Assembly: GCA_028688325.1 (NCBI GenBank)
Contig: JAQTYI010000002.1
Span: 9,395 to 73,394, forward strand
DNA from: Candidatus Portnoybacteria bacterium
GTDB lineage: Bacteria; Patescibacteriota; Minisyncoccia; Portnoybacterales; GWB1-42-6
Length of the DNA stretch: 64,000 bases
Reading direction: 5' to 3'
Of this stretch, positions 5,110 through 62,432 are shown one piece after another (within the stretch, counting starts at the first letter, position 1; every line of letters begins with the position of its first letter). The notes under the pieces are model-generated. The model saw only the letters and a program-made list of their open reading frames with translations. It was not told where the DNA came from and searched no databases. The translations under genes and the position numbers were made by a program.

Positions 5110-5265
5110 CCTAAAAAAGATTATGTCATTCCCGCCCCGCATCAAGTGCGGGGAGAATCCAGGTTTTTTGTCGCCCTGAACTTGCTTGCCTCGCCAAAGC
5201 TTTAGCGACGGTTGGGCTTCAGGGCCTGGATCCCGGGTCAGGCCCGGGATGACAATTCTATTAAT
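5110..5265. repeat. Palindromic dispersed repeat (tgtcattcccgcc…ggatcccgggtcaggcccgggatgaca)
   Basis: Related copies at 28076-28150 and 43048-43090. Confidence 0.55.
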
Positions 5266-8819: not shown

Positions 8820-9848
8820 TTACAAGTATTTTTTATTTATTTCCTTCACAATATCATATCCGTTGCAATGCTTCAACATTCCCGAATATGACTGTAAACT
8901 CTGGCCAAACGACTCCTCCAATATTAATCCGTCCTGCCAATTATTATATTTGTTTTTAATATTTTTAAACATTCTCCTTCTGGTTTTAGTCCGCAAAATT
9001 CTATAATCAGGAAAATTGACCAAACCCAAAAAATCCACCCCCGAAGCCAATGTTTTAATAAAAATTTTATCCGGATGCAATTCTAATTTTAGCCCTCGTC
9101 GCAAAAATTGCCGTATCGGCTCAATTTGTTGCTCCAAGCGTTTTTTGTCATCAGAAAAAAACACGAAATCGTCCGCGTACCGTATATATCGTTTATCTTT
9201 CAATTTATGCTTGGCAAACTGATCAAATTTATTCATGTAAATATTCACAAATAATTGCGAGGTGAGATTGCCAAGCGGCAAACCAATGCTCATCCCCTTT
9301 TCTGATGGAAAACTATCTACCACTCCTTCCAGCAGCCAAATAATATTCTCATCCGGAATATACTCTTTTAATATTTTGACTAAAATTTTGTGGTCAATAT
9401 TGGCAAAGAATTTTCTGATGTCACATTTCAAAACCCAGCATGTTTTTGTGTTATTTTTACTCACCTTCCAGACAAATTCCCGAAACCTGTTAACGACTTT
9501 ATGTGTTCCTTTCTTCAGTCGGCACGAATATGAATCGACAATAAAGGTTTTATCAAAAAACGGATATAAAATTCTGTAAATCGCGTGGTGAAGCAATCGG
9601 TCACGGACGCCCGCCTTATGAATGTTCCTGGGCTTAGGATCATTGATTTTAAACGCTTGATACCCGCCGTGCTTATAGGTATGATTAATAAGGTCGTTGT
9701 GGAGCGAAAAAATATTGTCCATTAAACGCATAGAAAATTCTTGAACATCTTTTCGCTGTTTTTTACCCTTCAAAAATTCCTTCCATGCTTCCAGCAAATT
9801 TTCAATGTTAATTATATCTTCAAATTTATGGACCAATTGAATTTTCAT
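8820..9848 (-). CDS. DGR-type reverse transcriptase
   Basis: 342-aa RT with YADD catalytic motif (IRYADDFVFF). DGR-diagnostic motif 4 reads IGLPLGNLTSQLFVNIYMN. No maturase or endonuclease domains. Confidence 0.85.
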   Translation of the reverse strand: MKIQLVHKFEDIINIENLLEAWKEFLKGKKQRKDVQEFSMRLMDNIFSLHNDLINHTYKHGGYQAFKINDPKPRNIHKAGVRDRLLHHAIYRILYPFFDKTFIVDSYSCRLKKGTHKVVNRFREFVWKVSKNNTKTCWVLKCDIRKFFANIDHKILVKILKEYIPDENIIWLLEGVVDSFPSEKGMSIGLPLGNLTSQLFVNIYMNKFDQFAKHKLKDKRYIRYADDFVFFSDDKKRLEQQIEPIRQFLRRGLKLELHPDKIFIKTLASGVDFLGLVNFPDYRILRTKTRRRMFKNIKNKYNNWQDGLILEESFGQSLQSYSGMLKHCNGYDIVKEINKKYL

Positions 9849-10227: not shown

Positions 10228-10266
10228 AACTCTCCCGGCAAGCAGCCAGGAGAGAAATGAAAAGAG

Positions 10267-10787: not shown

Positions 10788-11474
10788 CTATGACTGACTT
10801 GCGCAACCCGCAGACGGACCGTCGGCGTTCCAAGCGATGCCAAGCCAGTAGTAGCGCCAGTGCCACTCGCCATCGTCGTAGCGATAGAGACAGAGCACAT
10901 CGCGGTCGCCGCCCGGGTAGCGAAGAATTTGGCCGAAGAAATCCAGGTAGGAGATTTTGAAATTCCGATAAAACCACTCGAGAATACTGTTTTCCTTGTT
11001 GGCCTGGTAATCAAGCCATAAAGCGAGGAAAACATTGCCTCCGAAGCGGATGAAGTCGGGTTTTTCTTCTTTCAGGCGGCGGAGCTTTTCTTCGCCCTTG
11101 ATTGACTTCTCGTCTGCCCGAAGGCAAGTTTCAAAAACAAACCTGGCAAGCTCAATTTCTGAGAGAGCCAATGAACGAGGATCAATGTCTTCCTCGCCAG
11201 TTAACCCGTCGCCGTCAATCGGACCTTTCCAGGTTGCCCAACCCTTGCCGAGAAATTCGGCGGGATTGAAGGATTGGGTCAGAACGGATTTCGGATCGCC
11301 GATGATGAAACGGCCGCCATTCTTAAGGAAAGCGGTGAAACGCTTGCCGAATTCCTCCGGTGAAAGATTGATAACATTTTTTTGAAGACGATCTCCATCA
11401 ATTTCGTCCCAACTAACTTGCGTCCCGACACGGGCCGCGACCTCCAGAGCTTGACCGCGAGAAACTGTTTTCAT
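10788..11474 (-). CDS. DGR target protein with C-terminal C-type-lectin/FGE-like variable domain
   Basis: The VR occupies the last ~44 codons. Likely start MKTVSRGQ at 11474, with GGAGAA 5 nt upstream. The annotated longer ORF begins at 11540. Confidence 0.7.
10799..10929 (-). repeat. DGR variable repeat (VR) within the target-gene 3' end
   Basis: It differs from the TR only where the TR has A (A-to-N changes). It encodes …[35 protein letters not shown]. Confidence 0.85.
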
Positions 11475-11764
11475 GGCTATTCTCCTTTTCTGAATTTGCG
11501 CTTTAACCATATTTAATGGCTCTACGCATGTTTGGCTCACCCCTCATCCCGCCCCATGCGGAACTCCAAGATTGCCGTTATTTGCTTTAAATACGCTGTT
11601 TTTAATGTACTTTATTAATATACACCTTAATAAGATTCTTGTCAAGTCGAGGTGCGGATTATACACAAATAAAACACCCCGTAAAATGCAGGGTATTTTA
11701 TTTGAGATTGAGCCTACAATAAGCGACTCTATCTCATTAAATTATCGTGGACGAAATTTACATA

Positions 11765-23711: not shown

Positions 23712-25460
23712 CTAAAATCTAAACCCTAACAGACCACCATTTTCTTTAGCGTCTGTAAAGATAATCCTTATAGCCTTTTTAAATTCAACCCCAAATTCTT
23801 CGCTAAATTCTGAATAAGGAACATCGTCAGAGTTTAATGTGCAAATATACTGGGTCTTCGTTTCGCTGGCTATCTTTGCTGCAGACTCCAAGGCTTTTGC
23901 TGTTTGCCTTTCGTCAACACCATCAAAAATAGTGCTATCATGGATTAAGAATCTGGGACTCGGCTTCTTCTGTCTAAATTCTAAAACAGTAATATCATAA
24001 GTAAAAACTTTCATATAACTAATCCCTTGACTTCCCGCCCTCAATATCTCTACATTAAATTTATAGCCGGCATTAGTTATCGAGATCAAGAAATTACCTG
24101 GCTGAGAATATAAAAACTCTGAATTTTTATTAAATAATTTTATAATTTTTTCAATCTGGTCCTCTCTTTCTTCTTTATCTTGTCTAGCTTTTTTAATTAA
24201 GTCTTCTTTTTTAATTTTAATATTGCTAACGCCTTCTTCAATTTTTTTTATATCTCTGACTCTGTTATTTTTTTCCTCCAAAGACTGTCTTATCACTGAG
24301 AGGTGATTTTGTAATTTTGTATATTCTTCTAAGGCGCCATGGGTCTGCAAAATCATTAATAACTCAGCTCGCTTTGCGGATAATTCCTCTGTCTTCACTT
24401 TTTGCTCAGCCATTTCTCGTTGTATTCTTTGAACCTCTGATAATAGATAATCTTTCCTATTCTTTATAACTTTAATATGGAAATTTAGAACATCTTCTAC
24501 TCGCTTCTTTATTGCATCCGAAAATACAAACCTAGCTTCCGCATAAAGTTGTTCGACCTTTTGCAAGGAAATGTCTTTTTCTTCAATAAAACTCTCTTGG
24601 TATTTATCTAAAATATTTTTATTAATCGCAGAAGCATTAATGACATTATGGATTTGCTCTGTTAAAAGATCGGCTTCTTGCTGAATTTTATAATACTGTG
24701 GATGAACATTAAATGAATTGAGCTCTTCCTCATTCGCTTCAACCTCACTCAATAAACGAACTTTTTCTGCTTCTAGCTCGCTCAAAGAGCCCACCAAGCT
24801 ATCAAGCAATCCCAGCCCTAATGCTTTTTTTAAATTTTCTATTATACCCAATTCATCCTTCAATACCTGGAACTGACTAGCATACTCATCATTCATACCC
24901 AACAAAAAAGAATTATTTACTTGAACATCCCATTCTTTTTGCTGCGGATAATGTCTAAAGGGATCCTGAAAGCCGCCTAAACCTCTTCTGACTGCATAGG
25001 ATATCAGACTTCTAAATGTTGGCGAATATTTCCGCTCTTCAATTACCGGAAGACCATACATAAAAAAACCTAAGACTATTGTCCAGTCCTTAATAGGCAA
25101 AGTGCGTTTTCCGTCTCTTATCCCTACCTCTGGTTCTATGGGCCAACCAGAAAAATTACCCTCCAGCGTTACCCTCGAAAATTCTTTCGTATTTCTAGAA
25201 ACCGTTATAATTTTCCCATCAAGCTCAAGATCCAAAATAAAAGTCCATCCTTCAAGTTCTTTTCTACGAACACCAACATTTGGACTCGTACTTGAGCCAA
25301 GACAAAAATGTATGATTTCAATTAGAAAGCTTTTACCTAAACCATTTCTAGAATCTTTATCAGAGGAGTCGTTAGTACGCTCAGCGAGCACGACATTAAA
25401 ACCAGGGGAAAAATCAACTCGTTTGAATAAAGGATTTGTACTCCTAACCGATTTGATCAT
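23712..25460 (-). CDS. ABC/SMC-like coiled-coil ATPase (Septu PtuA / Lamassu LmuB / ABC-3C-like)
   Basis: N-terminal P-loop with insert (FNVVLAE-x12-NGLGKS). ~350 aa of coiled coil. C-terminal signature-like RAGSQGIS and Walker B/D-loop PRFLIHDSTIFDGVDE. Confidence 0.6.
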   Translation of the reverse strand: MIKSVRSTNPLFKRVDFSPGFNVVLAERTNDSSDKDSRNGLGKSFLIEIIHFCLGSSTSPNVGVRRKELEGWTFILDLELDGKIITVSRNTKEFSRVTLEGNFSGWPIEPEVGIRDGKRTLPIKDWTIVLGFFMYGLPVIEERKYSPTFRSLISYAVRRGLGGFQDPFRHYPQQKEWDVQVNNSFLLGMNDEYASQFQVLKDELGIIENLKKALGLGLLDSLVGSLSELEAEKVRLLSEVEANEEELNSFNVHPQYYKIQQEADLLTEQIHNVINASAINKNILDKYQESFIEEKDISLQKVEQLYAEARFVFSDAIKKRVEDVLNFHIKVIKNRKDYLLSEVQRIQREMAEQKVKTEELSAKRAELLMILQTHGALEEYTKLQNHLSVIRQSLEEKNNRVRDIKKIEEGVSNIKIKKEDLIKKARQDKEEREDQIEKIIKLFNKNSEFLYSQPGNFLISITNAGYKFNVEILRAGSQGISYMKVFTYDITVLEFRQKKPSPRFLIHDSTIFDGVDERQTAKALESAAKIASETKTQYICTLNSDDVPYSEFSEEFGVEFKKAIRIIFTDAKENGGLLGFRF

Positions 25461-25680
25461 GCTTTAATTTTATTAGATTGTTTTCAATTGTTATCAAGTC
25501 CAAAAGATGAAGTAAATCAAGAGTTAAAACAAATTTCTCAAAATTATTTACTTCTGGAATTTTATTATTTTTTTCCCACAAGGAAGAAACGGAACACGGT
25601 CTTCTAATTTCACCAAGCAAAACAGAGCCGACCCCAATAAGAGAATTAGATAATTTTATATTTTTATCAGGTAAAATCAT
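25444..25680 (-). CDS. Small hypothetical protein (middle component of ATPase operon)
   Basis: 78 aa. It overlaps both neighbours (17 nt and 4 nt). Confidence 0.4.
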   Translation of the reverse strand: MILPDKNIKLSNSLIGVGSVLLGEIRRPCSVSSLWEKNNKIPEVNNFEKFVLTLDLLHLLDLITIENNLIKLKHDQIG

Positions 25681-26408
25681 TTTTCAAATATATCACACTG
25701 CTCAAAAAAATAAATTAAAACAGATAAGCCAGCTGCTTGCTTTAAAATGTCTGCTGAATTAGATGAAGCGAAATCGGAAAGAATGTAAAATAGGCCGTCA
25801 CTCGAATTTCCTTTTTCTCTAAGCTCGCGATATTTTTCTATAAAACCGCGCTTCAGCCTTTCGGCAAAATCAGTGTCGGGGTGAGAATTTAAATATCTTT
25901 TAACTAAAGTTACCTTACTTAGTCCCATTTTTATTCGTTCCACAACATCCAGAGACAGGTCATTCTTTTTTATCTTTTCTTGCGGGGTTATTAAATCTAG
26001 TGTGCTTACTTCAAAATCATATTGCTTAACCAAATATTTTATCGTATCCTCTAACTCGCTAAAAGTAATCTGGGGCAAATTCATAATCAATTTCTTCTTT
26101 ACCCAGTCTTCGTGGTCTAGCTTTATCTTTTTTAATATATCTACCGTGTAAGCAATAGGATCTTTATCAATTTCTGTATGACAAGAAGAACACAACAAAA
26201 TATGATTGGCATAACAAGCCCTCTCTTTTTCTGTCATAGATTTATTGTATCTTGCAGAACCAGGCTCCTTGCCCTCAATGTGTGCGTCCTCTCCTTTGTG
26301 CTGGACATGACTTTTTACGCTCGTATGTGTAACTTGCCCTTTACACTTATTGCATATGCCAGCACTTCTCCCCCAAAGAATAATTTTTTCTGCCGGAGAA
26401 ATTTTCAT
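25677..26408 (-). CDS. HNH nuclease domain protein
   Basis: N-terminal CNKCKG…HIEGKEP…YANHILLCSSCH HNH zinc-finger nuclease motif, plus a ~150-aa helical C-terminal domain. Confidence 0.6.
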   Translation of the reverse strand: MKISPAEKIILWGRSAGICNKCKGQVTHTSVKSHVQHKGEDAHIEGKEPGSARYNKSMTEKERACYANHILLCSSCHTEIDKDPIAYTVDILKKIKLDHEDWVKKKLIMNLPQITFSELEDTIKYLVKQYDFEVSTLDLITPQEKIKKNDLSLDVVERIKMGLSKVTLVKRYLNSHPDTDFAERLKRGFIEKYRELREKGNSSDGLFYILSDFASSNSADILKQAAGLSVLIYFFEQCDIFEK

Positions 26409-26809: not shown

Positions 26810-26894
26810 GAAATAGCTTATAGCTGATAGCTTTTAGCTAATGGAAAAACTCAATTCTTGCGCGGATCGCTGCACTCGGAATGACAAAGTTTTT

Positions 26895-28058: not shown

Positions 28059-28266
28059 AGAATTACCCTCTCTTTTTTTATCTTGTCATCCCGGGCTTAA
28101 CCCGGGATCCAGGCCTTGCCATTCCCGCCCCGTACTTGATATGGGGCGGGAATGGCAGAAAAAAGGATACCAGTATCAGCCAAAATTCACTCATATTTTA
28201 TCCTAAAAACAAAAAAGGCGCAACCGAAATTACGCCCCCGCATATCGAGATTAAATCTCAATATTT

Positions 28267-38867: not shown

Positions 38868-39120
38868 AAATGTGTTGTATCAATCAGCGAGGGAGTCGGT
38901 TTTAAAACGCTCAATCCGATGAGTCAAACTTTTGGCGAGGCGTCCGCTGAGAAAAATGTCGCACACGAACTCCCTTGCAATTAGCGAGGGAGTTCGTTTT
39001 AAAACGCTCAATCCGACGAGCGGGCACGGTTTCCCGCTTTAGCGGGAAGAGCGAGGAGGATTGGCGAGTGAAATTTTCCTGGCTGGGGAAAATTTCACGA
39101 TTTTAAAACCGACTCCCGAG
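38868..39120. repeat. Composite/nested MITE region
   Basis: Two ~38-bp direct repeats (gcgagggagtYcgttttaaaacgctcaatccgaYgag) and an inverted terminal copy (ttttaaaaccgactcccgagcg). Internal copies of the gcgaggcgtccgctgagaaaaatgtcgc element. Confidence 0.55.
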
Positions 39121-42784: not shown

Positions 42785-43040
42785 ACGAAAAATTTTGTTA
42801 TAAAATCCTGGCGAGCCGAGCGTCTAAAATTGCCAGCGGGACAAGAGAACGGAGCGAATCGAGTTGTCCGCGGCGATTTTAGCAAGGCGAGGCGGATTTT
42901 ATATAAAATATATTTACTTGCTCGCTCGGAAATAAAAGTAATAACTTCTATTTCGCTCACTCGCTTCTTAAATCAAAATTTTATCGTCGCGCGCAGTCTT
43001 TTGGCTACTTTTCTGCTGCCAGAAAAGTAGCGAGATAAAT
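42785..43040. repeat. Dispersed repeat family (gctacttttctg…cagaaaagtagc hairpin plus cgtctaaaat…attttagacg)
   Basis: Matches 49215-49390. Confidence 0.55.
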
Positions 43041-43092
43041 ATTGATAAAAAATCCTGGATCCCGGGTCAAGCATGGGATGACAATTTATTTA

Positions 43093-46140: not shown

Positions 46141-46941
46141 CTATTGAACAATCACAAAAACCTGCTCCAAATTTTTAATTTCCATTGCCGGCGTTATGGA
46201 AGCGCGTTGAAAAATATCATTGGCCTTTTTGACGACATCCGTTATTTTTCCGATAATCAGGTCTTTCGGGACGCCGTCATTCAATCCCGATGTCAACACT
46301 GTTTCTCCGACATTGATCCGGACATCAATCGGTATCATTTCCATCGCCACGCCAAGACCGTGGCTTCCCTTGACGGCCCCGCCCACCCGCGTATCCTGAG
46401 TCACCGCATTCACGGACGAATTGCTGTCAAAAATCAAAAGCACCTTGGAATGATTTCCTTCGACTTCAGCCACTCGGCCGATCAAAAAGTCATTGGCCGC
46501 GACCACCGCCTGCCCCGCCGACAGGCCGTCCGCTCTGCCTTTGTCTATCAAAAAATACTGGCCCAAAACGGGATTATATCCGACAACATCCGCCATCACC
46601 GACCGGCGATTGGCCGTTTCGTCGTTCTCTAAATGCCGGCGCAACGCTTCATTTTCCCTGGCCGTTTCTTTTAATCGCGACACCTCTCCCAAAAGCGCCA
46701 GATTGGCATTTTTTAAATTAGCATTCTCTTTGTTCAGGTCTTTGATTTCCACAAAAAAATCCCAAGCGCCCGAAAATCCCTTATCAACGGAACGGAATAA
46801 TTTTAAAAACGGGCCGGCGGTCCAAAGCGCCAGATCCTTGGCGGGCGAGAGCAAGCCGCAAAAATTAAAAAAAATCAGCAGCAAGATTACCGCCAAGACC
46901 GCAAAAAAGTTAATTAATTTTGATTTATTTACATTTTTCAT
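46141..46941 (-). CDS. mreC: Rod shape-determining protein MreC
   Basis: N-terminal TM, coiled coil, beta-rich C-terminus; sits in the mreBCD order. Confidence 0.8.
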   Translation of the reverse strand: MKNVNKSKLINFFAVLAVILLLIFFNFCGLLSPAKDLALWTAGPFLKLFRSVDKGFSGAWDFFVEIKDLNKENANLKNANLALLGEVSRLKETARENEALRRHLENDETANRRSVMADVVGYNPVLGQYFLIDKGRADGLSAGQAVVAANDFLIGRVAEVEGNHSKVLLIFDSNSSVNAVTQDTRVGGAVKGSHGLGVAMEMIPIDVRINVGETVLTSGLNDGVPKDLIIGKITDVVKKANDIFQRASITPAMEIKNLEQVFVIVQ

Positions 46942-49214: not shown

Positions 49215-49390
49215 ATCAGAAAATCGAGATGAGCGAGTCGTCTAAAATCGCGTGCTGTGGTGGGGCCCCGACCGTCAGGTCGGGGCGTTGCGGATAGCGA
49301 TTTTAGACGAGCGAATCCGATTTTCTTTATTTTTTACGCTCGGGCGCGGTCTTTTGGCTACTTTTCTGCCGACAGAAAAGTAGCAAGAAA
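49215..49390. repeat. Dispersed repeat family copy
   Basis: cgtctaaaatcgc…gcgattttagacg inverted repeat plus ggtcttttggctacttttctgccgacagaaaagtagc hairpin. Confidence 0.55.
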
Positions 49391-49394
49391 AATT

Positions 49395-54108: not shown

Positions 54109-54303
54109 AAAATAAATTACAACAATCCGCCTCGCGTATACAGAGAATCTTCTTCAGATCAAAAGCGAGGGGGTATTTTCTGAAACGCTCAGTTTTGCGA
54201 GCGGGCACGGTTTCGCCTTTAGGCGAAGAGCGAACAAAACTGGCGAATAAAATTTCCTGGCTGGGGAAATTTTATGATTTCAGAAAATATTTCCGAGCTT
54301 ATT

Positions 54304-55422
54304 TTAATTATACCGCACCTTCTCAATAAACTCCATTATCTCCCGCCTGAACCTTTCCTCCGAGAATTTCTCCGCCCATTTACGAATAACCAAGGGGCTG
54401 TAATTTTTATAATTCTCACGCAAGCGGCGCACTCCGTCAGCCAGAACTTCCGGCGTTGCCTCATTAAAAAGCTCCCCGGTCATGGACGGCAAAACGGTTT
54501 CTTGCGCTCCGCCGGCGTTCAATGCCAGCACCGGCTTGCCATAACCCATGGCCTCAACCGGCGCGATGCCGAAATCATCTTCGCCCGGAAAAACAAAAGC
54601 ATAGCAATTCTTATAATATTCGGCTGTTTCTTTATCGCTGCGCCAGCCCAGAATACTGATATTCTCTTTAGCGATGCTTCGCAAATATTCTTCCTGCGGG
54701 CCCTCGCCGATTATCACCAAGGGCAAGCCGAGCTTATTGAACGCCTCAATAGCCACATCCACTTTTTTATACGGCGTGAGCTGAGAAACTATAAGAAAAT
54801 ATTCTTCGCCTTCTTCCACTGTCTCGTTTTTGGCAAGCAAAAATTCCGTGTCGGGCAGATATACGGGCGGATAGATGACTTTGGCCGTCTGGCGGTAGAA
54901 CTTCTGAATGCGCCCGGCCGTGGCCCGGGAGTTGGCAATAAAAGCGTCCACCCGTTGGCCTGCCGCCCTGTCCCATAAGCGTAAATAGCTTATGGCAAGT
55001 TTGGCAAAAAGTTGGCGCAGCCCGCCCACTTTTTGCTGACCCAGATATTCGTGGGAATAATCCCATAAAAACCGTGCGGGGTTATGGCAATAATTTATAT
55101 GGACCGTTTTGGGGCGGGTGATTACTCCTTTGGCAAAAGCCGAAGAAGAAGATATGACAAGGTCAAAGTCGCGCAGATCAAAGGTCTCGGGCGCCACCGG
55201 CAAAAAAGGCAGGAGATACTTGGGCCGCGACCTCAGCCATTTAGGAAATTTTTGCAAAAAAGAAACGCGCACGCGCCCGACCGGAAAATATCCGCCCATC
55301 TTGGCTTCATCGTATAAAAAAGTATAGATCGGCGCTTCAGGAAACATTTCCGCCAATTCCAAAAGCACCCTCTCCGCCCCTCCAAATCTTGTTAGATAAT
55401 CATGGACCAATGCTACCTTCAT
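54304..55422 (-). CDS. GT4-family glycosyltransferase
   Basis: C-terminal E-x7-E region (FVFPGEDDFGIAPVEAMGYGKPV). Start trimmed to MKVALVHDY; upstream codons derive from a repeat. Confidence 0.8.
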   Translation of the reverse strand: MKVALVHDYLTRFGGAERVLLELAEMFPEAPIYTFLYDEAKMGGYFPVGRVRVSFLQKFPKWLRSRPKYLLPFLPVAPETFDLRDFDLVISSSSAFAKGVITRPKTVHINYCHNPARFLWDYSHEYLGQQKVGGLRQLFAKLAISYLRLWDRAAGQRVDAFIANSRATAGRIQKFYRQTAKVIYPPVYLPDTEFLLAKNETVEEGEEYFLIVSQLTPYKKVDVAIEAFNKLGLPLVIIGEGPQEEYLRSIAKENISILGWRSDKETAEYYKNCYAFVFPGEDDFGIAPVEAMGYGKPVLALNAGGAQETVLPSMTGELFNEATPEVLADGVRRLRENYKNYSPLVIRKWAEKFSEERFRREIMEFIEKVRYN

Positions 55423-55469
55423 TTCATTAAGTTTTGTATTACTATTCCGCGCATGCGAAAAATGACAAT

Positions 55470-55600
55470 TTATTGTCATCCCGAACGAAGTGAGGAATCT
55501 CTGGCTAATGCCAGACCCGTTGCGCGGATCTCCGCCTGATGGCGGATCCCGCGAGATCCCTCGCTACGCTCGGGACGACACTTCGTGTCGATTTTATCGT
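55470..55600. repeat. Palindromic dispersed repeat (gtcatcccgaacgaagtgagg … ctcgggacgacacttcgt)
   Basis: Homologous to 58385-58500; partial copy at 56024-56080. Confidence 0.6.
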
Positions 55601-55676
55601 CGCGCGGCGGTTTTTCTGGTTCTCTGGCGTCCACCCCGTAATTTATACGGGGCCCGGGCAAAAGAGAACGAAAATA

Positions 55677-56927
55677 TCAACTTATCAGTATCTTTAGCGT
55701 TTCCCTCGCGCATTTATCCCAGCTAAACCTCTTAACATTCTCATAACCCAATTGTATCAGTTTATCACGCAATGCCTTATCGTCAATTATCTGTTTGGCC
55801 GCCTCGGCGATTTGGGCGGGATTTTGGGGATTAACGAACAATGCCCCGCTGCCGGCAATTTCCGGCAAACAAGAACCATACGAAGTTATCACAGACACGC
55901 TCGCGGCCTGGGCTTCAAGCACGGGTAGTCCGAATCCTTCGTAAAAGGAAGGGAACAGAAAAACGGCCGCGTTAGAAAGTAATTGCCATTTTGCATCTTC
56001 AGATATATAACCAAGTTCGACTATTTTGTCATCCCGAACTTGTTTCGGGATCCCGCGAGATGCCGAAATAAATTCGGCATGGCAATTATTAAATTTCTCT
56101 ATCTCTTTTTTTAAATTTTTGTAACCATAGCCGGGCGCACCTGCCAAGACAAGTCGGTGCGGCGCGCCATATTCTTCTTTCAAAATCTTATACGCCTCCA
56201 AAATTCCTTGAATATTTTTTTTGGTTTCAATACGGCCGATATATAATAAATATGGTTCAAATAACTCCCCCTTACCCCCTCTTAATTTAAGAGGGGGTGG
56301 TTCTCCCTCCTTTTGCAAAGAAGGACTGGGGTGGTTTTCTCCTCCACTTAGATTAAGGGGAGGTTGGGAGGGGTTAGAAAAAGTCACTCCATGATGCACC
56401 ACGCTGATTTTCTCCGCTTCGCCGCCATATAATTTTACCAAGTCCCGCTTCGTGTTTTCCGATATCGCGATAATTTTTTTAGCGCGCTTGAACGCGTGTT
56501 TTGTACTCCAACGCAAATACATTCTGCGCCAAAACGAATAATACTGCGGGAAATGCTCATATTCCAAACCGTGCAGCGCCACTACGGAATTTGGCGGCGC
56601 GCCGAAGGGCAGAATATGAACGGGAATAAACAGCGTATCTGGTTTGTGCCGCCATACTTCCCAAGCCAACCGGATTTGCGTCCATAAAAACGGCAACGGC
56701 CAGCGCAGAATTTTTATTTCAAAATTAGGAGGCAATAGAAAATCGAAATATTTTTTATTCGTGTCATTCGCGCTAATTCGTGTATCGGTGTCGGGTAAAT
56801 ATAACAAAAACCGATGCTCGCGGGCCTCCGGAAGCATCGTTAAATGTTTTATCAGCTGATACGCATATTCTTCAACACCCGTGCGCGGCTGTTTTATCGC
56901 CGCCGCGGCATTAATGCCAATAATCAT
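55677..56927 (-). CDS. GT4-family glycosyltransferase carrying two in-frame repeat-derived insertions
   Basis: GT4 C-terminal domain (FLFPSFYEGFGLPVLEAQAASVSVI). Extra segments NCHAEFISASRGIPKQVRDDK and …GGENHPSPSLQKEGEPPPLKLRGGKGE coincide with palindromic repeats at 56024-56080 and 56270-56390. Confidence 0.75.
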   Translation of the reverse strand: MIIGINAAAAIKQPRTGVEEYAYQLIKHLTMLPEAREHRFLLYLPDTDTRISANDTNKKYFDFLLPPNFEIKILRWPLPFLWTQIRLAWEVWRHKPDTLFIPVHILPFGAPPNSVVALHGLEYEHFPQYYSFWRRMYLRWSTKHAFKRAKKIIAISENTKRDLVKLYGGEAEKISVVHHGVTFSNPSQPPLNLSGGENHPSPSLQKEGEPPPLKLRGGKGELFEPYLLYIGRIETKKNIQGILEAYKILKEEYGAPHRLVLAGAPGYGYKNLKKEIEKFNNCHAEFISASRGIPKQVRDDKIVELGYISEDAKWQLLSNAAVFLFPSFYEGFGLPVLEAQAASVSVITSYGSCLPEIAGSGALFVNPQNPAQIAEAAKQIIDDKALRDKLIQLGYENVKRFSWDKCARETLKILIS

Positions 56928-57319
56928 AAAGAATTGAAATATAAATCACAAAATTCCTTAACTCTTTTTCTCTGCTCTTCTATGTGTGCGTTTTTATAAT
57001 TATATCCCTTCAATTCGTTCAATAGGTGTCGTCCAATTTCTTTTATAGTCGCTCCTTCTTTTTCTTTTCTCTCTTTTTTTGTATGAATGTCTTTGTGTCT
57101 AATATCTACTATTATATTCTGTCTTCTTTCTCGTAAATATTTTATTGCTTCTCCAACTTTAAAATCCGTTGACGATTTAAAACTCGCCCTGCAATAATCG
57201 CCAATTCTTCCCCATAAGCTGGAGCTTTCTCCTACATAAATAGGTATTTTCCTATTATCTTTCGCTGAATAAATAATATATACCGCGCTAATATCGTTAG
57301 GAAAATTAAATGTAAACAA
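56924..57319 (-). CDS. GIY-YIG-like small nuclease
   Basis: VYIIYS…IYVGESSSLWGRIGDY resembles GIY-YIG. Overlaps the GT4 start by 4 nt. Confidence 0.45.
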   Translation of the reverse strand: MFTFNFPNDISAVYIIYSAKDNRKIPIYVGESSSLWGRIGDYCRASFKSSTDFKVGEAIKYLRERRQNIIVDIRHKDIHTKKERKEKEGATIKEIGRHLLNELKGYNYKNAHIEEQRKRVKEFCDLYFNSL

Positions 57320-57334
57320 ATCTTTAAATTTTAT

Positions 57335-58348
57335 TTATTTTTTACTCATTATGCTCCTCTTGTAAACCTCCAAATGGTCCAGCGCCAAACCCGCGCCCTT
57401 GGCCACGCAAAGTTCTGGTTCATCGGCCCTGTAGCAGGGCACGCCAATCGCTTTTTCGATGAGTTCGGGCAAATTGCGTAACTTGGCGCTGCCGCCCGAC
57501 AATATCATTCCTCTGTCCATCACATCCGCGGAAAGTTCGGGCGGAGTATCTTGCAAGACCGCTTTCACCGTTTGGACAATTTCGCGCAGCTGCTCGGCGA
57601 TGGCCTCGGTTATTTCGTTGGTTTTTATTTCCACATTTTTGGGCAGGCCGGAAATCAGGTCGCGGCCGCGAACCTCAAAATATTGCTCTTCTTTGGGCGG
57701 CAAAGGCAGGGCCGAACCGATGGCGACTTTTATTTCTTCGGCTGTGCGCTCGCCGATGGCCAAGTTGTGTTTTTTCCTGACATATTCTGCAATGGCTTGG
57801 TCGATCTTGTTGCCGCCCACGCGCGCCGAAGCCCAGGCCACAATTCCGCCAAGAGAAATAACGGCCACTTCCGAAGTCCCCCCGCCGATATCAATTATCA
57901 TGTGGCCGGCCGGCTCATTGATGGGGATGCCCGCGCCGATGGCGGCCAGAACCGGTTCTTTCACGATATAGGCGGCCTTGGCGCCGGCATTCAGAGTAGC
58001 GTCAACGACCGCGCGCCGTTCCGTTGAGGTAATGCCCGCCGGAACTGCCACCATAACCTCGGGCCGGAATAAACGGAACGCGCCCGTGGTTTTATTGATG
58101 AAATAGCGCAGCATGGCCTCGGTCACCCGATAATCAGCTATCACGCCATCTTTCATGGGGCGCGATGCAACTATGGCTTCGGGGGTTCTCCCTAACATTT
58201 CTTTGGCTTCATTTCCCACCGCCAGTATCTTGTTGTCATCCAAAGATATCGCCACAACCGTGGGCTCGTTTATGACAACGCCTTTTCCCGGCACGAAAAC
58301 CAAAGTGTTGGCCGTGCCCAGGTCTATGCCGATTTTTTTAATAAACAT
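57335..58348 (-). CDS. MreB-like actin homolog (second paralog)
   Basis: GIDLGTANT, IDIGGGT, LSGGSA motifs. Start trimmed to MFIKKIG; upstream codons derive from a repeat. Confidence 0.85.
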   Translation of the reverse strand: MFIKKIGIDLGTANTLVFVPGKGVVINEPTVVAISLDDNKILAVGNEAKEMLGRTPEAIVASRPMKDGVIADYRVTEAMLRYFINKTTGAFRLFRPEVMVAVPAGITSTERRAVVDATLNAGAKAAYIVKEPVLAAIGAGIPINEPAGHMIIDIGGGTSEVAVISLGGIVAWASARVGGNKIDQAIAEYVRKKHNLAIGERTAEEIKVAIGSALPLPPKEEQYFEVRGRDLISGLPKNVEIKTNEITEAIAEQLREIVQTVKAVLQDTPPELSADVMDRGMILSGGSAKLRNLPELIEKAIGVPCYRADEPELCVAKGAGLALDHLEVYKRSIMSKK

Positions 58349-58384
58349 TTTTCTGTTAATTAAAACCAATTTATTCTTGCCATA

Positions 58385-58500
58385 CAACATCGTCATACCG
58401 AACGAAGTGAGTGATCCCTCGCGAATGCGAGATTGTCCGCCCATTCGGGCGAGATTCCTCGCTCCGCTCGGAATGACACATCGTCGCGCGGCAAAAGTAT
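58385..58500. repeat. Palindromic dispersed repeat copy
   Basis: cgtcataccgaacgaagtgagtgatccctcgc … ctcgctccgctcggaatgacacatcgtcgcg. Confidence 0.6.
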
Positions 58501-58501
58501 T

Positions 58502-59764
58502 TTATATCTTCTGAATGTCTGCACCAATATTTTTCAGCCTTCCTGCCAAATCTTCATATCCCCTCTCTATCTGATAAATATTGCTTATTTCCGTCTTTCC
58601 TTTCGCTATCAAAGCAGCGATAATCAAGGCGATGCCGGCGCGCAGATCGGGAATCACGAGCTTGCGGCCGTAAAGTTTGGTCGGGCCATTGACCACTGCC
58701 CTGTGCGGATCGGCCATAATAATATCGGCTCCCATTTGCGTTAAAGTATCGGTAAAAAGTAAACGGCGGTCGTATATTGTTTCGTGTATCAAACTGGAAC
58801 CATGGGCCTGGGTCATAAGCACTGTGTAGGCAGATTGCAGGTCGGTGGCAAAGCCCGGGTATTCATGGGTCACAACATCTTCCGCTAAAATTTTGGCGCT
58901 CGGCTTTATTTTGATGCTGCTTTTGCCCAATTCATAATTTACGCCGATCTTGTCAAACAAAGCCCAAAGCGCGCCCAAATGCGCCGGCTCGCAATCCTCG
59001 ATAATGATTTCACCGCTGTTTGACGCGGCCGCCAGAATGGCGAAAGTCCCCGCTTCAATGCGATCGGGAATTATTTTATACTCCCCGCCACCCAATTTAT
59101 CAACGCCCGTTATTTTAATGGTCGGCGTGCCTGCGCCGCTGATTTTCGCCCCCATGCGGTTTAAAAGATCCGCCAGCGCCGAAATTTCCGGCTCCATGGC
59201 GCAATTTTCCAAAATGGTTTCTCCTTGCGCCAGGCAAGCCGTGGTCATCAAGCTTTCCGTGCCAGTCACGGTGACTTTGGGAAAAAATATTTTCGCACCC
59301 CGCAATTTCTTAGCAGTCAGGCGATAACTGTTTTCTAAAATTTCCGCCTTGGCGCCCATTTTGGCGAACCCGTCCAAAAACATATCGATGGGGCGCGTCG
59401 CGCCGATAACACAGCCGCCTGGATGAGGAAAATAAACCTCGCCGCAAGTGGCCAGAAGCGGCCCGACAAACATGACCGCCGCGCGGAATTTATTGACGAG
59501 GTCCGCCGGCAGATTAACGCAAACCTTGCTTTTTCGCTGAATTTGCATCACGCTGCCGCCCAGATCTTTTACCTCATGGCCCAAAGCAACCAGCATTTCC
59601 TGCGCCCGGTGGCAATCTTCGATGTCCGGCACATTGATCATTTTTATCGGCTCATCCATCATTAAGGCCAGCGGAAAAACCTTAAGCGCGGCATTTTTTG
59701 CGCCCTTGACCTTAATGGTTCCGCTAAGCGGTTTTTGGCCATTTATGACGAATTTCGACTCCAT
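58502..59764 (-). CDS. murA: UDP-N-acetylglucosamine 1-carboxyvinyltransferase
   Basis: Full-length MurA collinearity with catalytic Cys loop (…HPGGCVIG…). Confidence 0.95.
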   Translation of the reverse strand: MESKFVINGQKPLSGTIKVKGAKNAALKVFPLALMMDEPIKMINVPDIEDCHRAQEMLVALGHEVKDLGGSVMQIQRKSKVCVNLPADLVNKFRAAVMFVGPLLATCGEVYFPHPGGCVIGATRPIDMFLDGFAKMGAKAEILENSYRLTAKKLRGAKIFFPKVTVTGTESLMTTACLAQGETILENCAMEPEISALADLLNRMGAKISGAGTPTIKITGVDKLGGGEYKIIPDRIEAGTFAILAAASNSGEIIIEDCEPAHLGALWALFDKIGVNYELGKSSIKIKPSAKILAEDVVTHEYPGFATDLQSAYTVLMTQAHGSSLIHETIYDRRLLFTDTLTQMGADIIMADPHRAVVNGPTKLYGRKLVIPDLRAGIALIIAALIAKGKTEISNIYQIERGYEDLAGRLKNIGADIQKI

Positions 59765-59765
59765 G

Positions 59766-59935
59766 AATTTATGCTTTAGCGAGGCGTCCGCTGAGAAAAA
59801 TGTCGCGCAGCCGCGCTGCTAAATCTTTTTATTTAAACCATCATTGCGCGGCGAGCGCCAAGCAGCAGCCGGGGTTGTACATTATGCTATCGCGACATGG
59901 CTGACTGCGGTTTTTCGAAGCGGACGCCGAGTCGC
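59766..59935. repeat. MITE-like element (gcgaggcgtccgctgagaaaaatgtcgcgcagccgc … ctgactgcggtttttc…)
   Basis: ~160 bp with imperfect inverted termini; second copy at 62268-62432. Confidence 0.65.
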
Positions 59936-61894: not shown

Positions 61895-62257
61895 CTATTT
61901 TGCTTCTTTCTTAAAAAGTTTCAGATTATTAATGATTTTGTCGCGCGTGCGGTTTTTCGGCAGCATGCCATAAACCGCGAGCTTCAACACTTCCCGAGAA
62001 TCCTTGGTCATAAGCTTTTCCAGGGCTATCTCTTTAAGCCCGCCCGGATAGCCGGAGTGATGCCTATACATTTTCTGTTTCAATTTTTTGCCGGTGAATT
62101 TTAAAAGGTCGGTGTTATAAACTTTCACGATATTTTCCGGAGTTATCCTGGGCAGAAAATTAGCGGTATTCTTGCTGCGCAGTAAAACCGCCGCCTCAAC
62201 GGCCAACCGGCCAAGGATTTTTCCCTTAGCATCAATTGTATGCTCTTTTCTTTCCAT
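61895..62257 (-). CDS. rplM: 50S ribosomal protein L13
   Basis: KGKILGRLA… L13 N-terminus. The ORF-track start at 62308 includes repeat-derived codons. Confidence 0.9.
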   Translation of the reverse strand: MERKEHTIDAKGKILGRLAVEAAVLLRSKNTANFLPRITPENIVKVYNTDLLKFTGKKLKQKMYRHHSGYPGGLKEIALEKLMTKDSREVLKLAVYGMLPKNRTRDKIINNLKLFKKEAK

Positions 62258-62267
62258 ATTTTTACTC

Positions 62268-62432
62268 TTAAGCGAGGCGTCTGCTGAGAAAATGTCGCGC
62301 AGCCGCACCGTTAATCAATTTATGCTTATTCTGTGTTTATTGCGCGGCGAGCGCCAAGCAGCAGCCGAATTTGAACTCTCTATTATGCCTTTTGGCTGAC
62401 TGCGGTTTTTCTCAGCGCCTACGCCGAACGAT
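62268..62432. repeat. MITE-like element inserted between rplM and rplQ
   Basis: Homologous to 59766-59935. Confidence 0.65.

What the first reader, a model, noticed from the sequence alone, without database searches (positions are those of the whole stretch)
56024..56390. Two further in-frame repeat insertions in a GT4 glycosyltransferase
The GT4 gene at 55677-56927 contains two inserted segments. The first, at 56024-56080, is gtcatcccgaacttgtttcgggatcccgcgagatgccgaaataaattcggcat, a member of the gtcatcccgaac… family. The second, at 56270-56390, is rich in perfect palindromes such as ccccctcttaatttaagaggggg. Both are translated in frame (NCHAEFISASRGIPKQVRDDK and …ENHPSPSLQKEGEPPPLKLRGGKGE) at loop positions of the GT-B fold. 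Together with the dnaX case this points to a genome-wide propensity for coding-sequence MITE insertion.
Basis: seen in the sequence. Interest (0 to 1): 0.55.

Follow-up and report, generated by a model that had tools for sequence, protein, structure and literature searches.

The report
In-frame palindromic repeats in glycosyltransferase
An intact sugar-transferase gene of a tiny CPR bacterium carries two small palindromic repeat elements that are read through as extra floppy surface loops, as is known from Rickettsia; the unusual point is that these inserts are conserved as DNA hairpins, not as protein.

Summary
The GT4 gene (55677-56927, minus strand; Candidatus Portnoybacteria) holds two in-frame inserts that 36 to 120 orthologs show to be extra, and both lie in low-confidence loops of a GT-B model.

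Insert 1 is 56027-56084 (58 nt, residues 282-300). It is a heterodimer of two TGTC/CGTC-tagged REP hairpins and meets every structural criterion of the CGTC REP superfamily (Di Nocera 2013), which includes Rickettsia RPE-4 and RPE-6. It is present in some orthologs and absent in others. A second copy sits at a different loop of one ortholog. Its 28-nt unit occurs unchanged in at least 10 phyla.

Insert 2 is 56262-56376 (115 nt, residues 185-222). It belongs to a second family of compound palindromes with TAAC...GTTA ends. Five orthologs inherited it, and the same element sits in frame in unrelated genes (Mur ligase, UvrA, DnaG and others).

Length variation across 120 orthologs is confined to three loop hot spots with mixed repeat content. 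Insert 2 is conserved equally at all three codon positions (70/70/62% invariant columns, against 66/78/27% in the gene core), and stems are more conserved than loops. That indicates constraint on the nucleotide sequence.

The kind of event is known (RPE-like). The lineage, the second family and the DNA-level constraint are new details. How the elements move is unknown.

The parts
55677..56927 (-). Host gene: GT4 (GT-B fold) glycosyltransferase, 416 aa, intact
   Evidence: Pfam Glyco_transf_4 plus Glycos_transf_1. 100% identical to a Candidatus Portnoybacteria MAG protein on a 788,852-bp contig. AlphaFold pLDDT 83, pTM 0.82. Foldseek top hits are GlgM, MshA, BshA and WaaG. EX7E residues E330 and E338 are invariant in 36 orthologs.
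56027..56084 (.). Insert 1: 58-nt heterodimer of two TGTC/CGTC-type REP hairpin units, tags outward, encoding residues 282-300 (CHAEFISASRGIPKQVRDD)
   Evidence: Absent from orthologs P0002, P0004 and P0005; present at the same codon in P0003, P0006 and P0007. Lies between helix 269-282 and strand 302-306, block pLDDT 56-59.
56027..56054 (+). Insert 1, unit a: TGTC tag, 8-bp stem ATCCCGAA/TTCGGGAT, loop CTTGT, tail CCC
   Evidence: perfect unit. The same 28-nt unit was found in 70 genome contigs of at least 10 phyla.
56057..56084 (-). Insert 1, unit b: TGCC tag (degenerate), stem ATGCCGAA/TTCGGCAT, loop TTTAT, tail CTC
   Evidence: (I20). Orthologs carry TGTC or TACC at this tag.
56262..56376 (.). 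Insert 2: 115-nt compound palindromic element with TAAC...GTTA ends, encoding residues 185-222
   Evidence: (I1, I4). Shared at the same codon by P0002-P0005. Residues 187-222 have pLDDT<50 and form the inter-domain linker before strand 226-230.
56275..56297 (.). Insert 2 hairpin H3: perfect palindrome CCCCCTCTTAA-T-TTAAGAGGGGG (peptide PPLKLRGG)
   Evidence: The core motif is present in more than 120 metagenome contigs and 14 IMG/VR contigs.
56305..56325 (.). Insert 2 central hairpin H2 within the spacer (peptide SLQKEG); specific to this gene lineage
   Evidence: Absent from the two-hairpin copies elsewhere, e.g. L175.
56341..56363 (.). Insert 2 hairpin H1: CCTCCACTTA-GAT-TAAGGGGAGG (peptide PPLNLSGG)
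   Evidence: I1. Two compensatory pair changes among orthologs.
55472..55582 (.). Intergenic relative of insert 1 (TGTCATCCCGAACGAAGTGAGGAATC ... GATCCCTCGCTACGCTCGGGACGACA) between the two GT4 genes
   Evidence: (D9, D14).
58390..58478 (.). Intergenic relative upstream of mreB (CGTCATACCGAACGAAGTGAG ... CTCGCTCCGCTCGGAATGACA)
5125..5254 (.). Element with TGTCAT...ATGACA ends; contains a perfect unit TGTC|ATCCCGGG|CCTGA|CCCGGGAT|CCA at 5230-5254 (minus strand)
28084..28160 (.). Element upstream of dnaX, starting with the perfect unit TGTC|ATCCCGGG|CTTAA|CCCGGGAT|CCA (28084-28108)
43054..43086 (.). Degenerate TGTC unit, related to the unit at 5225-5257
   Evidence: (D14).

Best explanation
Both segments are copies of small, non-autonomous palindromic repeat elements of the REP / Rickettsia-RPE kind. 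They inserted into a functional GT4 glycosyltransferase gene and are translated as disordered surface loops.

Insert 1 is a dimer of two TGTC/CGTC-tagged hairpin units. Insert 2 is a member of a second family built of nested C5/G5 palindromes with TAAC...GTTA ends.

Shown here:
- The inserts are extra relative to orthologs.
- The same DNA elements occur elsewhere, both intergenically and inside unrelated genes.
- Only reading frames free of stop codons are seen in intragenic copies.
- In this gene family, insertions are found only in three structural loops.

Inferred:
- Insertion occurs more or less anywhere, and selection keeps only copies that are in an open frame and in a tolerant loop.
- The encoded peptide is incidental.
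- The elements are moved in trans by an enzyme that recognises the hairpin plus its 5' tetranucleotide. By analogy with REP/RAYT this would be a Y1/HUH transposase. None is encoded in the window.

Once inserted, the hairpins are kept by constraint at the nucleotide level (shown as a pattern; its cause is unknown).
For: Extra relative to orthologs:
- The 36-sequence alignment and the codon-level DNA alignment show both inserts as additions.
- In 120 orthologs, length variation is confined to slots after residues 49, 188 and 278. Inserts of at least 6 aa occur in 78, 81 and 37 sequences; no other slot has more than 2.

Loop location: pLDDT<50 at residues 50-57 and 187-222, and block pLDDT 56-59 over 283-301, in an otherwise confident GT-B model.

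Mobility of insert 1:
- Its presence at site 3 is patchy on the ortholog tree.
- Ortholog P0006 has a second copy, in the same frame, at site 1.
- Further units and elements lie in the window.
- The 28-nt unit is found in 70 contigs from many phyla, with the architecture TGTCATGCTGAAC..GTTTCAGCATC - spacer - GGGATCCCGAAACAAGTTCGGGATGACA.
- 19 of 74 copies lie inside long ORFs (MetRS, GT4, DHH, UvrD and others), using all five stop-free frames of the unit.

Mobility of insert 2:
- More than 120 metagenome contigs carry the core inside TAAC...GTTA arms.
- 19 of 122 copies lie inside long ORFs (UDP-glucose dehydrogenase, YchF, DnaG, Mur ligase, UvrA), always in the one open frame per strand.
- L175 matches the GT4 protein only across the insert.

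Structural match to CGTC REPs (tag, 8-bp stem starting AT, 5-nt loop, 3-nt tail, dimer).
Against: - No transposase and no target-site duplication were identified. 36 ORFs of the window gave no transposase domain, and tblastn with IS200, RAYT and CPR Y1 queries found nothing in the window. Transposition is therefore inferred, not shown.
- Both elements are 3n+1 nt long, so the event that restored the frame is unexplained.
- Insert 2 has no second copy in the 64-kb window.
- The inserts are more conserved than expected for neutral passengers. This fits a functional reading at least as well.
- Translation of the inserts has not been observed. It is inferred from the intact frame and the conservation of the gene.
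Confidence: 0.8

Rival explanations
1. The inserts began as repeat insertions but are now functional nucleic-acid elements inside the coding sequence. The hairpins, as mRNA structure or as a DNA/RNA protein-binding site, are what selection maintains. One possibility is slowing of the ribosome at the GT-B inter-domain linker; others are control of mRNA stability or binding of a host factor. The peptide would be a by-product.
For: - In insert 2, the share of invariant columns among five orthologs is 70/70/62% at codon positions 1/2/3, against 66/78/27% in the gene core (third position, Fisher p=3.7e-5).
- The rise in third-position identity (0.79-0.82) is confined to residues 181-222, with flanks at 0.51-0.52.
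- Paired columns are invariant in 61 of 80 cases, unpaired in 15 of 35 (p=0.001).
- 94% of stem cells stay paired, with two compensatory changes.
- Insert 1 shows the same excess: third-position identity 0.65-0.89 against 0.53-0.58.
- The sense-strand RNA folds into the four-helix structure at -49 kcal/mol.
- Insert 2 sits exactly at the domain boundary.
Against: - Only five sequences were compared, and covariation support is weak (18 of 500 shuffles reach the observed value).
- The closest orthologs do without insert 1, and most orthologs do without either insert.
- The three loops hold many unrelated repeat types, which looks like tolerance rather than need.
- No terminator-like or Rfam-type signal on the sense strand.
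- Conservation of the units could also reflect gene conversion from other genomic copies or a younger age.
Confidence: 0.25
2. The segments are lineage-specific protein loops that arose in place, by ordinary indels or duplication, and are selected for a protein-level role. Their resemblance to repeats is coincidental.
For: Insert 2 is inherited by five orthologs at one site. Loops of GT-B enzymes vary naturally.
Against: - The same DNA elements, including their terminal arms, occur in unrelated genes and in intergenic DNA.
- The same element is read in different frames in different genes.
- Conservation within the inserts shows no codon periodicity.
- The insert-1 element sits at two different loops of one ortholog.
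Confidence: 0.03
3. The inserts are assembly or binning artefacts: repeat-induced chimeric joins in a metagenome-assembled genome.
For: The window comes from a MAG, and short palindromic repeats can mislead assemblers.
Against: The same inserts lie at the same codons, with independent sequence differences, in contigs from separate projects: ENA ERZ27297473, NCBI GCA_018901455.1, JGI 3300025308, ENA ERZ928008, ERZ27237541 and ERZ27293400. The frame is preserved in all of them.
Confidence: 0.01
4. The elements are removed before the protein is made or matures (intron-like at the RNA level, or intein-like), so the enzyme is unaltered.
For: Strong hairpins at both inserts.
Against: - The inserts are 58 and 115 nt, with no ribozyme or intein features and no Rfam match.
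- Intragenic copies are found only in stop-free frames. Selection for an open frame would be unnecessary if the element were spliced out.
Confidence: 0.02

Closest known systems
CGTC-tagged REPs (Di Nocera, De Gregorio & Rocco 2013, BMC Genomics 14:522; PMC3733652), including Rickettsia conorii RPE-4/RPE-6 and Neisseria dRS3
   Same: Insert 1 has the defining anatomy:
[quoted passage not shown]
- an 8-bp stem beginning AT;
- a 5-nt loop;
- a 3-nt tail;
- pairing into heterodimers with the tags outward;
- no associated transposase.

Intragenic copies encode 20-30 aa, with peptides of the same type. The paper lists VIPAKAGI, DSRFRGND, WIPAFAGMT and WTPDQVRGD; here the peptides are VIPNLFRDP and GIPKQVRDD.
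   Different: - The host is a CPR bacterium (Portnoybacteria); the paper covered 5 phyla, mostly Alphaproteobacteria.
- The tail is CCC/CTC in the intragenic copy, whereas CCA is seen in the copies at 5230 and 28084.
- The exact 28-nt unit is shared by at least 10 phyla.
- Intragenic copies are strongly enriched in CPR: 13/21 against 6/53.
Rickettsia palindromic elements (RPE; Ogata et al. 2000 Science 290:347, as summarised in PMC10969869)
   Same: Palindromic repeats inserted in frame into unrelated housekeeping genes. They are translated and sit at positions compatible with the protein fold.
   Different: - RPE-1 is about 150 bp; the elements here are 58 and 115 nt.
- The lineage is different.
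- Here one gene family shows three recurrent hot-spot loops whose repeat content differs between orthologs.
- Here there is evidence for nucleotide-level conservation of an inherited copy.
REP / REPIN elements mobilised by RAYT tyrosine (Y1, HUH) transposases
   Same: Both inserts are doublets of short hairpins in inverted orientation with a variable spacer and a conserved terminal tag. A CPR-wide family of single-copy Y1_Tnp genes flanked by short hairpins exists.
   Different: - There is no GTAG tag.
- There is no RAYT in the window.
- The hairpins flanking the CPR Y1 genes (TAACACCTCC..GGAGGTGTTA, CACCTCGGAGGTGATA) only loosely resemble the arms of insert 2. The link is a lead, not a result.
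Bacterial MITEs found intragenically (ERIC, Nezha, QMITE1; reviewed in PMC10969869)
   Same: Small size, terminal inverted repeats (TGTCAT...ATGACA; TAAC...GTTA), multiple dispersed copies, and occasional in-frame fusion with host ORFs.
   Different: No target-site duplication and no parent insertion sequence with matching ends could be found. The internal organisation is REP-like hairpin modules.

Membership tests
CGTC-tagged REP superfamily (Di Nocera 2013) | Unpaired 5' tetranucleotide tag CGTC (variants TGTC, CCTC) | tested here: met
   Unit a has TGTC at 56027-56030. Unit b has TGCC here and TGTC in orthologs P0003 and P0006 site 1. Across the sampled loci, 143 perfect units carry TGTC and 30 carry CGTC.
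CGTC-tagged REP superfamily (Di Nocera 2013) | Stem of 8-9 bp whose first two bases are AT | tested here: met
   ATCCCGAA/TTCGGGAT and ATGCCGAA/TTCGGCAT, both perfect 8-bp stems (I19 and I20).
CGTC-tagged REP superfamily (Di Nocera 2013) | Loop of 4-5 nt | tested here: met
   Loops CTTGT and TTTAT, 5 nt each.
CGTC-tagged REP superfamily (Di Nocera 2013) | Short unpaired 3' tail, consensus CCA | tested here: met
   A 3-nt tail is present. It is CCC or CTC in insert 1, and CCA in the window units at 5230-5254 and 28084-28108.
CGTC-tagged REP superfamily (Di Nocera 2013) | Multi-copy, mostly as dimers of inverted units with tags outward | tested here: met
   Insert 1 is such a dimer with a 2-nt spacer. 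The same dimer architecture with 5-45-nt spacers occurs in many loci. Three perfect and several degenerate units lie in the 64-kb window.
Rickettsia palindromic elements (RPE) | In-frame insertion in unrelated protein-coding genes at structurally tolerant positions | tested here: met
Rickettsia palindromic elements (RPE) | Sequence membership in one of the named RPE families of Rickettsia | not tested
   No RPE consensus sequences were available. The only link is through the statement in PMC3733652 that RPE-4 and RPE-6 are CGTC REPs.
MITE | Terminal inverted repeats, small size, many copies | tested here: met
   TGTCATSCCGAA...TTCGGSATGACA and TAACNCCCCC...GGGGGNGTTA.
MITE | Target-site duplication flanking the element | tested here: inconclusive
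   No consistent direct repeat flanks the copies. Empty sites in orthologs are too diverged to compare. Both elements being 3n+1 nt long would fit a 2-bp duplication, but this is not shown.
MITE | Parent insertion sequence with the same ends encoding a transposase | tested here: not met
   None was found in the window or in about 1.5 Mb of fetched loci. There was no annotated feature in plasmids and no match in phage records. This is a weak test, because only a small sample of each genome was held.
REPIN/RAYT system | GTAG tag at the 5' end of the hairpin | tested here: not met
   The tags are TGTC/TGCC (insert 1) and TAAC (insert 2).
REPIN/RAYT system | Single-copy RAYT gene flanked by the same repeats in the same genome | not testable with these tools
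   Only 64 kb of the 789-kb genome is held, and it contains no Y1 gene. CPR Y1_Tnp genes with flanking hairpins do exist in other genomes.
GT4 glycosyltransferase (host gene) | GT-B two-domain fold with Glyco_transf_4 and Glycos_transf_1 domains and an EX7E motif | tested here: met
   (E330 and E338 invariant).

The most novel reading that the evidence does not exclude
The intragenic hairpin elements are not passive passengers. They are maintained by selection on nucleic-acid structure inside an essential coding sequence, for example as a programmed mRNA structure at the GT-B domain boundary or as a binding site for a conserved factor. The identity of the TGTC hairpin unit across phyla (conserved loop and loop-proximal pairs, covarying mid-stem) would then reflect recognition by a widespread trans-acting protein that has not yet been identified, possibly a Y1/HUH enzyme of the kind found with hairpin flanks in CPR genomes.
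Probability: 0.2. Interest if true: 0.75.

Novelty: new member of a known kind. Interest (0 to 1): 0.5.

Why it matters
In-frame palindromic repeats in genes are best known from Rickettsia. A 2013 survey described them for CGTC/GTAG REPs in a few phyla. This locus extends the picture in four ways.

1. The same class of element is active in ultra-small CPR bacteria. There most copies of the sampled unit sit inside genes (13 of 21), which may reflect how little intergenic space these genomes have.

2. One glycosyltransferase family serves as a natural experiment. Three loops accept, lose or exchange at least five different repeat types across 120 orthologs. This maps where a GT-B enzyme tolerates 20-50 extra residues.

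3. An inherited insert is conserved as DNA or RNA structure, equally at all codon positions and more in stems than in loops. This makes the old question testable: are such repeats junk, or do they work as nucleic-acid elements?

4. A 28-nt hairpin unit is identical in at least 10 phyla and has no known mobilising enzyme.

On the practical side, these repeats inflate and distort protein annotations in CPR genomes. The called starts of mreB and of the neighbouring GT4 gene both lie inside repeat elements, and such repeats can also yield spurious small ORFs.

Tried and rejected
- Rfam, at gathering thresholds on the whole window and at E-value thresholds on 55400-56600. Only a tRNA was found, plus far sub-threshold hits to miRNA-precursor hairpins.
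- Literature search by raw sequence strings of both elements. Only chance primer matches came back. Searches for CPR/Patescibacteria together with MITE or palindromic repeat found nothing relevant.
- BLAST of the insert-1 consensus against plasmids and phages. Four plasmid records matched (Treponema, sphingomonads), none with a repeat or mobile-element annotation under the match. No phage record matched. An IMG/VR scan gave 0 contigs for the insert-1 unit and 14 for the insert-2 core.
- Tandem Repeats Finder on insert 2. No array was found. The ~34-nt spacing of the hairpins is therefore not a clean tandem repeat.
- Terminator and promoter scan. Nothing on the sense strand inside the inserts.
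- Search for a transposase. tblastn with IS200 TnpA (sequence recalled from memory), three RAYT/TIRYT sequences from the 2013 paper's supplement, and CPR Y1 proteins gave no hit in the window. Pfam on 36 window ORFs gave no transposase; the reverse transcriptase that was found belongs to a DGR.
- Link between the CPR Y1_Tnp family and insert 2. The hairpins flanking those genes share only the TAAC..CC/GG..GTTA and GGTGATA ends with family-B arms, and no dispersed copies were seen in the loci held. This is kept as a lead only.
- Target-site duplications. None was consistent.
- The GIY-YIG-like ORF next to the gene, considered as a homing endonuclease. It is a conserved small gene at this position in several orthologous loci, not an obvious mobile insertion.
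Full report
**What is there**

The ORF at 55677-56927 (minus strand, 416 aa) is a family-4 glycosyltransferase. Pfam finds Glyco_transf_4 over residues 17-181 and Glycos_transf_1 over 224-395. The protein is 100% identical to one from a Candidatus Portnoybacteria MAG on a 788,852-bp contig.

An AlphaFold model built on 36 orthologs is confident (mean pLDDT 83, pTM 0.82). It shows the two Rossmann-like halves of a GT-B enzyme. Its best Foldseek matches are GlgM, MshA, BshA, WaaG and PimA. The EX7E glutamates E330 and E338 are invariant, so the gene is not a pseudogene.

Gene order is murA - mreB - small ORF - GT4 - GT4 - holB. This order is shared with orthologous contigs.

**Checking the observation**

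The complete element is 56027-56084:

TGTC ATCCCGAA CTTGT TTCGGGAT CCC - GC - GAG ATGCCGAA ATAAA TTCGGCAT GGCA

It consists of two perfect 8-bp-stem hairpins that together form a 60-nt near-palindrome (I2, I19, I20). It folds far better than shuffled sequence: z = -3.9 as DNA on either strand and -4.2 as sense RNA.

The second element runs from 56262 to 56376, not 56270-56390. It has three parts:
- an outer stem, TAACTCCCCC / GGAGGGGTTA;
- two related palindromes, 56275-56297 (perfect, 11+11) and 56341-56363;
- a central hairpin, 56305-56325.

The minimum-free-energy fold of the sense RNA reproduces this four-helix arrangement at -49 kcal/mol.

Both elements are read in the gene's frame. They give residues 282-300 (CHAEFISASRGIPKQVRDD) and 185-222 (NPSQPPLNLSGGENHPSPSLQKEGEPPPLKLRGGKGEL).

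**They are insertions**

An alignment of 36 orthologs (350-448 aa) shows both segments as additions. Re-aligning all 120 listed orthologs confines length variation to three slots, after window residues 49, 188 and 278. Inserts of at least 6 aa occur in 78, 81 and 37 sequences respectively. No other slot has more than two.

The three slots coincide with the only long low-confidence stretches of the model:
- residues 50-57;
- residues 187-222, the inter-domain linker before strand 226-230;
- the loop 283-301, between helix 269-282 and strand 302-306.

At the DNA level, the insert-1 element is at the same codon in the window and in the genes of P0003, P0006 and P0007. It is absent from the closest relatives P0002, P0004 and P0005. 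P0002 has two different small hairpins at that site. P0006 carries a second copy of the same element, in the same frame, at slot 1.

Insert 2 is at the same codon, with the same unique central spacer hairpin, in the window and in P0002-P0005. It is therefore one old insertion inherited by that group.

Other orthologs fill the same slots with other repeat-type peptides, such as HSDP..AGEES..LGMT, VIPAKAGIQ, RSAQGISPE and PPF.KGG. On a neighbour-joining tree the insert types are interleaved. This suggests gain, loss or replacement at the same loops, although the tree is crude.

The same inserts recur in contigs from six separate assemblies, so chimeric assembly is excluded.

**What insert 1 is**

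The window holds other members of the family:
- perfect units TGTC|ATCCCGGG|loop|CCCGGGAT|CCA at 5230-5254 and 28084-28108;
- longer elements with TGTCAT...ATGACA ends at 5125-5254, 28084-28160, 55472-55582 and 58390-58478;
- a degenerate unit at 43054-43086.

This anatomy is the definition of the CGTC-tagged REPs of Di Nocera et al. [quoted passage not shown]

That paper equates R. conorii RPE-4 and RPE-6 with CGTC REPs. It lists intragenic copies whose peptides (VIPAKAGI, DSRFRGND, WIPAFAGMT, WTPDQVRGD) are of the same type as VIPNLFRDP and GIPKQVRDD here. Insert 1 is therefore a heterodimer of two such units with the tags outward.

A scan of one genome per GTDB species with the 28-nt right-hand unit (four positions degenerate) found 70 contigs. 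They come from Treponema, cultured Mucilaginibacter, Gamma- and Alphaproteobacteria MAGs, Gottesman-, Roizman-, Levy-, Davies-, Berkel- and Magasanikbacteria, Ignavibacteria, Zixibacteria, an anammox planctomycete, Bdellovibrionales and Gastranaerophilales.

Most copies have the same dimer plan, tGTCATGCTGAAC(T/C)(T/C)GTTTCAGCATC - 5-45-nt spacer - GGGATCCCGAAACAAGTTCGGGATGACA.

In 178 perfect units from the sampled DNA:
- the loop-proximal GAA/TTC is nearly invariant (174 of 178);
- the loops are CTTGT, CTCGT or TTTAT;
- the middle three stem pairs covary (CCC, GCT, TCT, TCC, CCT, GCC).

The CCC class is inflated because the loci were chosen by that unit.

Nineteen of the 74 copies lie inside long ORFs, with at least 60 codons on each side. 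The hosts include MetRS, two GT4 enzymes, a DHH phosphoesterase and UvrD (Pfam). Together they use all five stop-free frames of the unit, so no particular peptide is being selected.

The intragenic share is 13 of 21 in CPR genomes and 6 of 53 elsewhere (Fisher p = 2e-5).

**What insert 2 is**

Nothing like it recurs in the window.

These copies share a clear plan:
- a simple form, (A)TAAC(T/G/A)CCCCC - 3-5 nt - core palindrome - 3-5 nt - GGGGG(A/C/T)GTTA(T);
- a compound form in which a second palindrome, CCTCCCCTTAAnnTAAGGGGAGG, with its arm GGAGGGGTTA follows after a variable spacer.

The window's element is the compound form with a longer spacer that holds the central hairpin.

Nineteen of 122 copies lie inside long ORFs, always read as ..(N/I)(S/T)P.PPL(N/K)LRGG... 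This matches the fact that only one frame per strand is free of stop codons. Hosts confirmed by Pfam are UDP-glucose dehydrogenase, YchF, DnaG, a Mur ligase and UvrA.

The Mur ligase of L175 carries SNPSQPPLNLRGGEISPLKLRGGEGELF. By tblastn it matches the GT4 protein only across the insert. So insert 2 is also a dispersed element, of a family that the library searches did not find described. Fourteen IMG/VR contigs carry the core.

**An unexpected property**

Among the five orthologs that inherited insert 2, nucleotide identity at third codon positions is 0.79-0.82 across residues 181-222. It is 0.51-0.52 in the windows on either side, and the rise is confined to the insert.

| Region | Invariant columns, codon position 1 | Position 2 | Position 3 |
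|---|---|---|---|
| Insert 2 | 70% | 70% | 62% |
| Gene core | 66% | 78% | 27% |

The third-position difference gives Fisher p = 3.7e-5.

Within the element, paired columns are invariant in 61 of 80 cases and unpaired ones in 15 of 35 (p = 0.001). Of the stem cells, 94% remain paired, and two pairs changed on both sides.

Insert 1 shows the same excess: third-position identity is 0.65-0.89, against 0.53-0.58 in the core.

Conservation without codon periodicity means selection is not acting on the peptide. Three causes remain open. The hairpins could be constrained as DNA or RNA. Their unit sequences could be refreshed by gene conversion from other copies. Or part of the signal could reflect a younger age, though the unique shared spacer argues against a younger age for insert 2.

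**Mechanism**

The best-supported account is as follows. Small hairpin elements are copied into new sites. Copies that land in a stop-free frame in a tolerant loop of an essential gene survive and are translated as disordered loops.

The structural facts and the frame and loop filters are shown. The act of transposition is inferred, and the enzyme is unknown.

- No transposase lies in the window: 36 ORFs were scanned.
- tblastn found none in the window.
- No target duplication could be read.
- Both elements are 3n+1 nt long, so two further bases must have been gained, or one lost, to keep the frame.

One lead came up. A Gottesmanbacteria contig holding a family-A unit (L040) encodes a 222-aa Y1_Tnp protein (Pfam E = 9e-9). 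It belongs to a family of more than 4,000 proteins, and the few with source names are Gottesman- and Levybacteria (CPR). In four loci the gene is flanked on both sides by short hairpins:
- CACCTCGGAGGTGATA;
- TAACACCTCCGAGGTGTTA;
- TAACACCCCGGGGGTG;
- CACCTGGGAGGTGATTTA.

These flanks share TAAC..CC/GG..GTTA and GGTGATA ends with family-B arms. The resemblance is loose, and no such gene is in the window.

**Comparison with what is known, and verdict**

The phenomenon is the one described for Rickettsia RPEs (Ogata 2000, as summarised in PMC10969869) and for intragenic CGTC/GTAG REPs (PMC3733652). Insert 1 passes every structural criterion of the CGTC REP superfamily. Insert 2 is a further family of the same general kind.

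Neither insert meets the GTAG/RAYT definition of REPINs. The MITE criteria of a target duplication and a parent IS are not met or remain undecided.

The new points are:
- the CPR host and the high intragenic fraction in CPR genomes;
- the three-loop hot-spot pattern with mixed repeat content in one enzyme family;
- the identity of the hairpin unit across phyla;
- the second family;
- the codon-phase-independent conservation of an inherited intragenic copy.

I rate this a new member of a known kind, of moderate interest. A minority reading remains open, in which the hairpins function inside the coding sequence.

Noticed in passing
window 8820-11540: A diversity-generating retroelement. There is a reverse-transcriptase ORF at 8820..9848 (minus strand; Pfam RVT_1) and a 134-nt repeat pair, 10264-10397 and 10796-10929. 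Fifteen of the 16 mismatches are T in the first copy on the plus strand, which is A on the coding strand. This marks 10264-10397 as the template repeat and 10796-10929 as the variable repeat, at the C-terminal end of ORF 10788..11540.
   Followed up: partly
window 26895-28058 (minus strand): dnaX (Pfam DNA_pol3_delta2, DNA_pol3_gamma3) has an extra ARSSTSLDSTRDKSLGVKS between NCE and PCNKCASC. The peptide looks repeat-derived, resembling the RSAQGIS / STRSSTS type seen in GT4 orthologs. The gene is flanked by TGTC-type elements at 28084-28160 and about 26876-26885.
   Followed up: partly
window 23712-26408: Two adjacent genes with DUF2326 (23712..25460) and the CTD10 domain of ABC-three-component (ABC-3C) systems (25677..26408). 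They are a probable conflict or defence module.
   Followed up: no
window 56924-57319 (minus strand): A small ORF (131 aa) with a weak GIY-YIG match (E=6e-5) overlaps the GT4 start codon. A small ORF of similar size sits at the same place in L003, L004 and L006, but not in L001.
   Followed up: partly
window 57335-58444 and 54304-55479 (minus strand): The mechanically called starts of mreB (MGGQSRIREGSLTSFGMT...) and of the second GT4 gene (MTINCHFSHARNS...) lie inside repeat elements. The real starts are probably MFIKKIGIDLG and MKVALVHDY. Repeats of this kind can create false N-terminal extensions in annotation.
   Followed up: partly
L028, L033, L037, L051, L053, L059, L070, L075 (positions of the unit as): In at least 8-10 of the 74 cross-phylum copies, all outside CPR, the complete TGTC unit is followed by 4-5 nt (X), then about 6-8 nt, then a partial repeat of the unit's end (TTC)GGGATGACA, then the same X. 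This is a duplication of the element-flank junction with a period of about 19-21 nt. It is unexplained and may be a footprint of the copying mechanism.
   Followed up: no
L040 4869-5537 (minus strand); L212 1501-2178; L213 1501-2169; L215 1501-2172: A large family of ~222-aa Y1_Tnp (IS200/RAYT-like) genes; the named members are CPR (Gottesman- and Levybacteria). More than 4,000 proteins match at E<=1e-10, mostly in clusters of one to a few sequences. Each of the four genes examined is flanked on both sides by short conserved hairpins, and they sit next to housekeeping genes such as recA, hrcA-grpE, cca and secDF.
   Followed up: partly
window 38886-39095, 54164-54273, 59760-59880, 62253-62376, 42979-43040, 49332-49393: Several other short dispersed repeat families lie in intergenic DNA. 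Examples are AGCGAGGGAGT...GCGGGCACGGTTTC, TTAGCGAGGCGTCCGCTGAGAAAA, and hairpins GCTACTTTTCTGC..GCAGAAAAGTAGC. The window is generally rich in repeats.
   Followed up: no
window 47037-48095 and 57335-58444: Two mreB paralogues share about 75% nucleotide identity over parts of the gene. The first is followed by mreC (46141..46941) (D5, D7, D15; 16; 92).
   Followed up: no
L175 (metagenome contig Ga... locus), ORF around 1073: The Mur ligase that carries the family-B element also has other repeat-like inserts: ITPSQSPPYQGGEEILNFSQPPLTKGGEIQNPPQPSFTKGGSK near the N-terminus and QQPTPSSTEEERKKSK. Multiple in-frame repeat insertions in one gene are therefore not peculiar to the GT4 gene.
   Followed up: no
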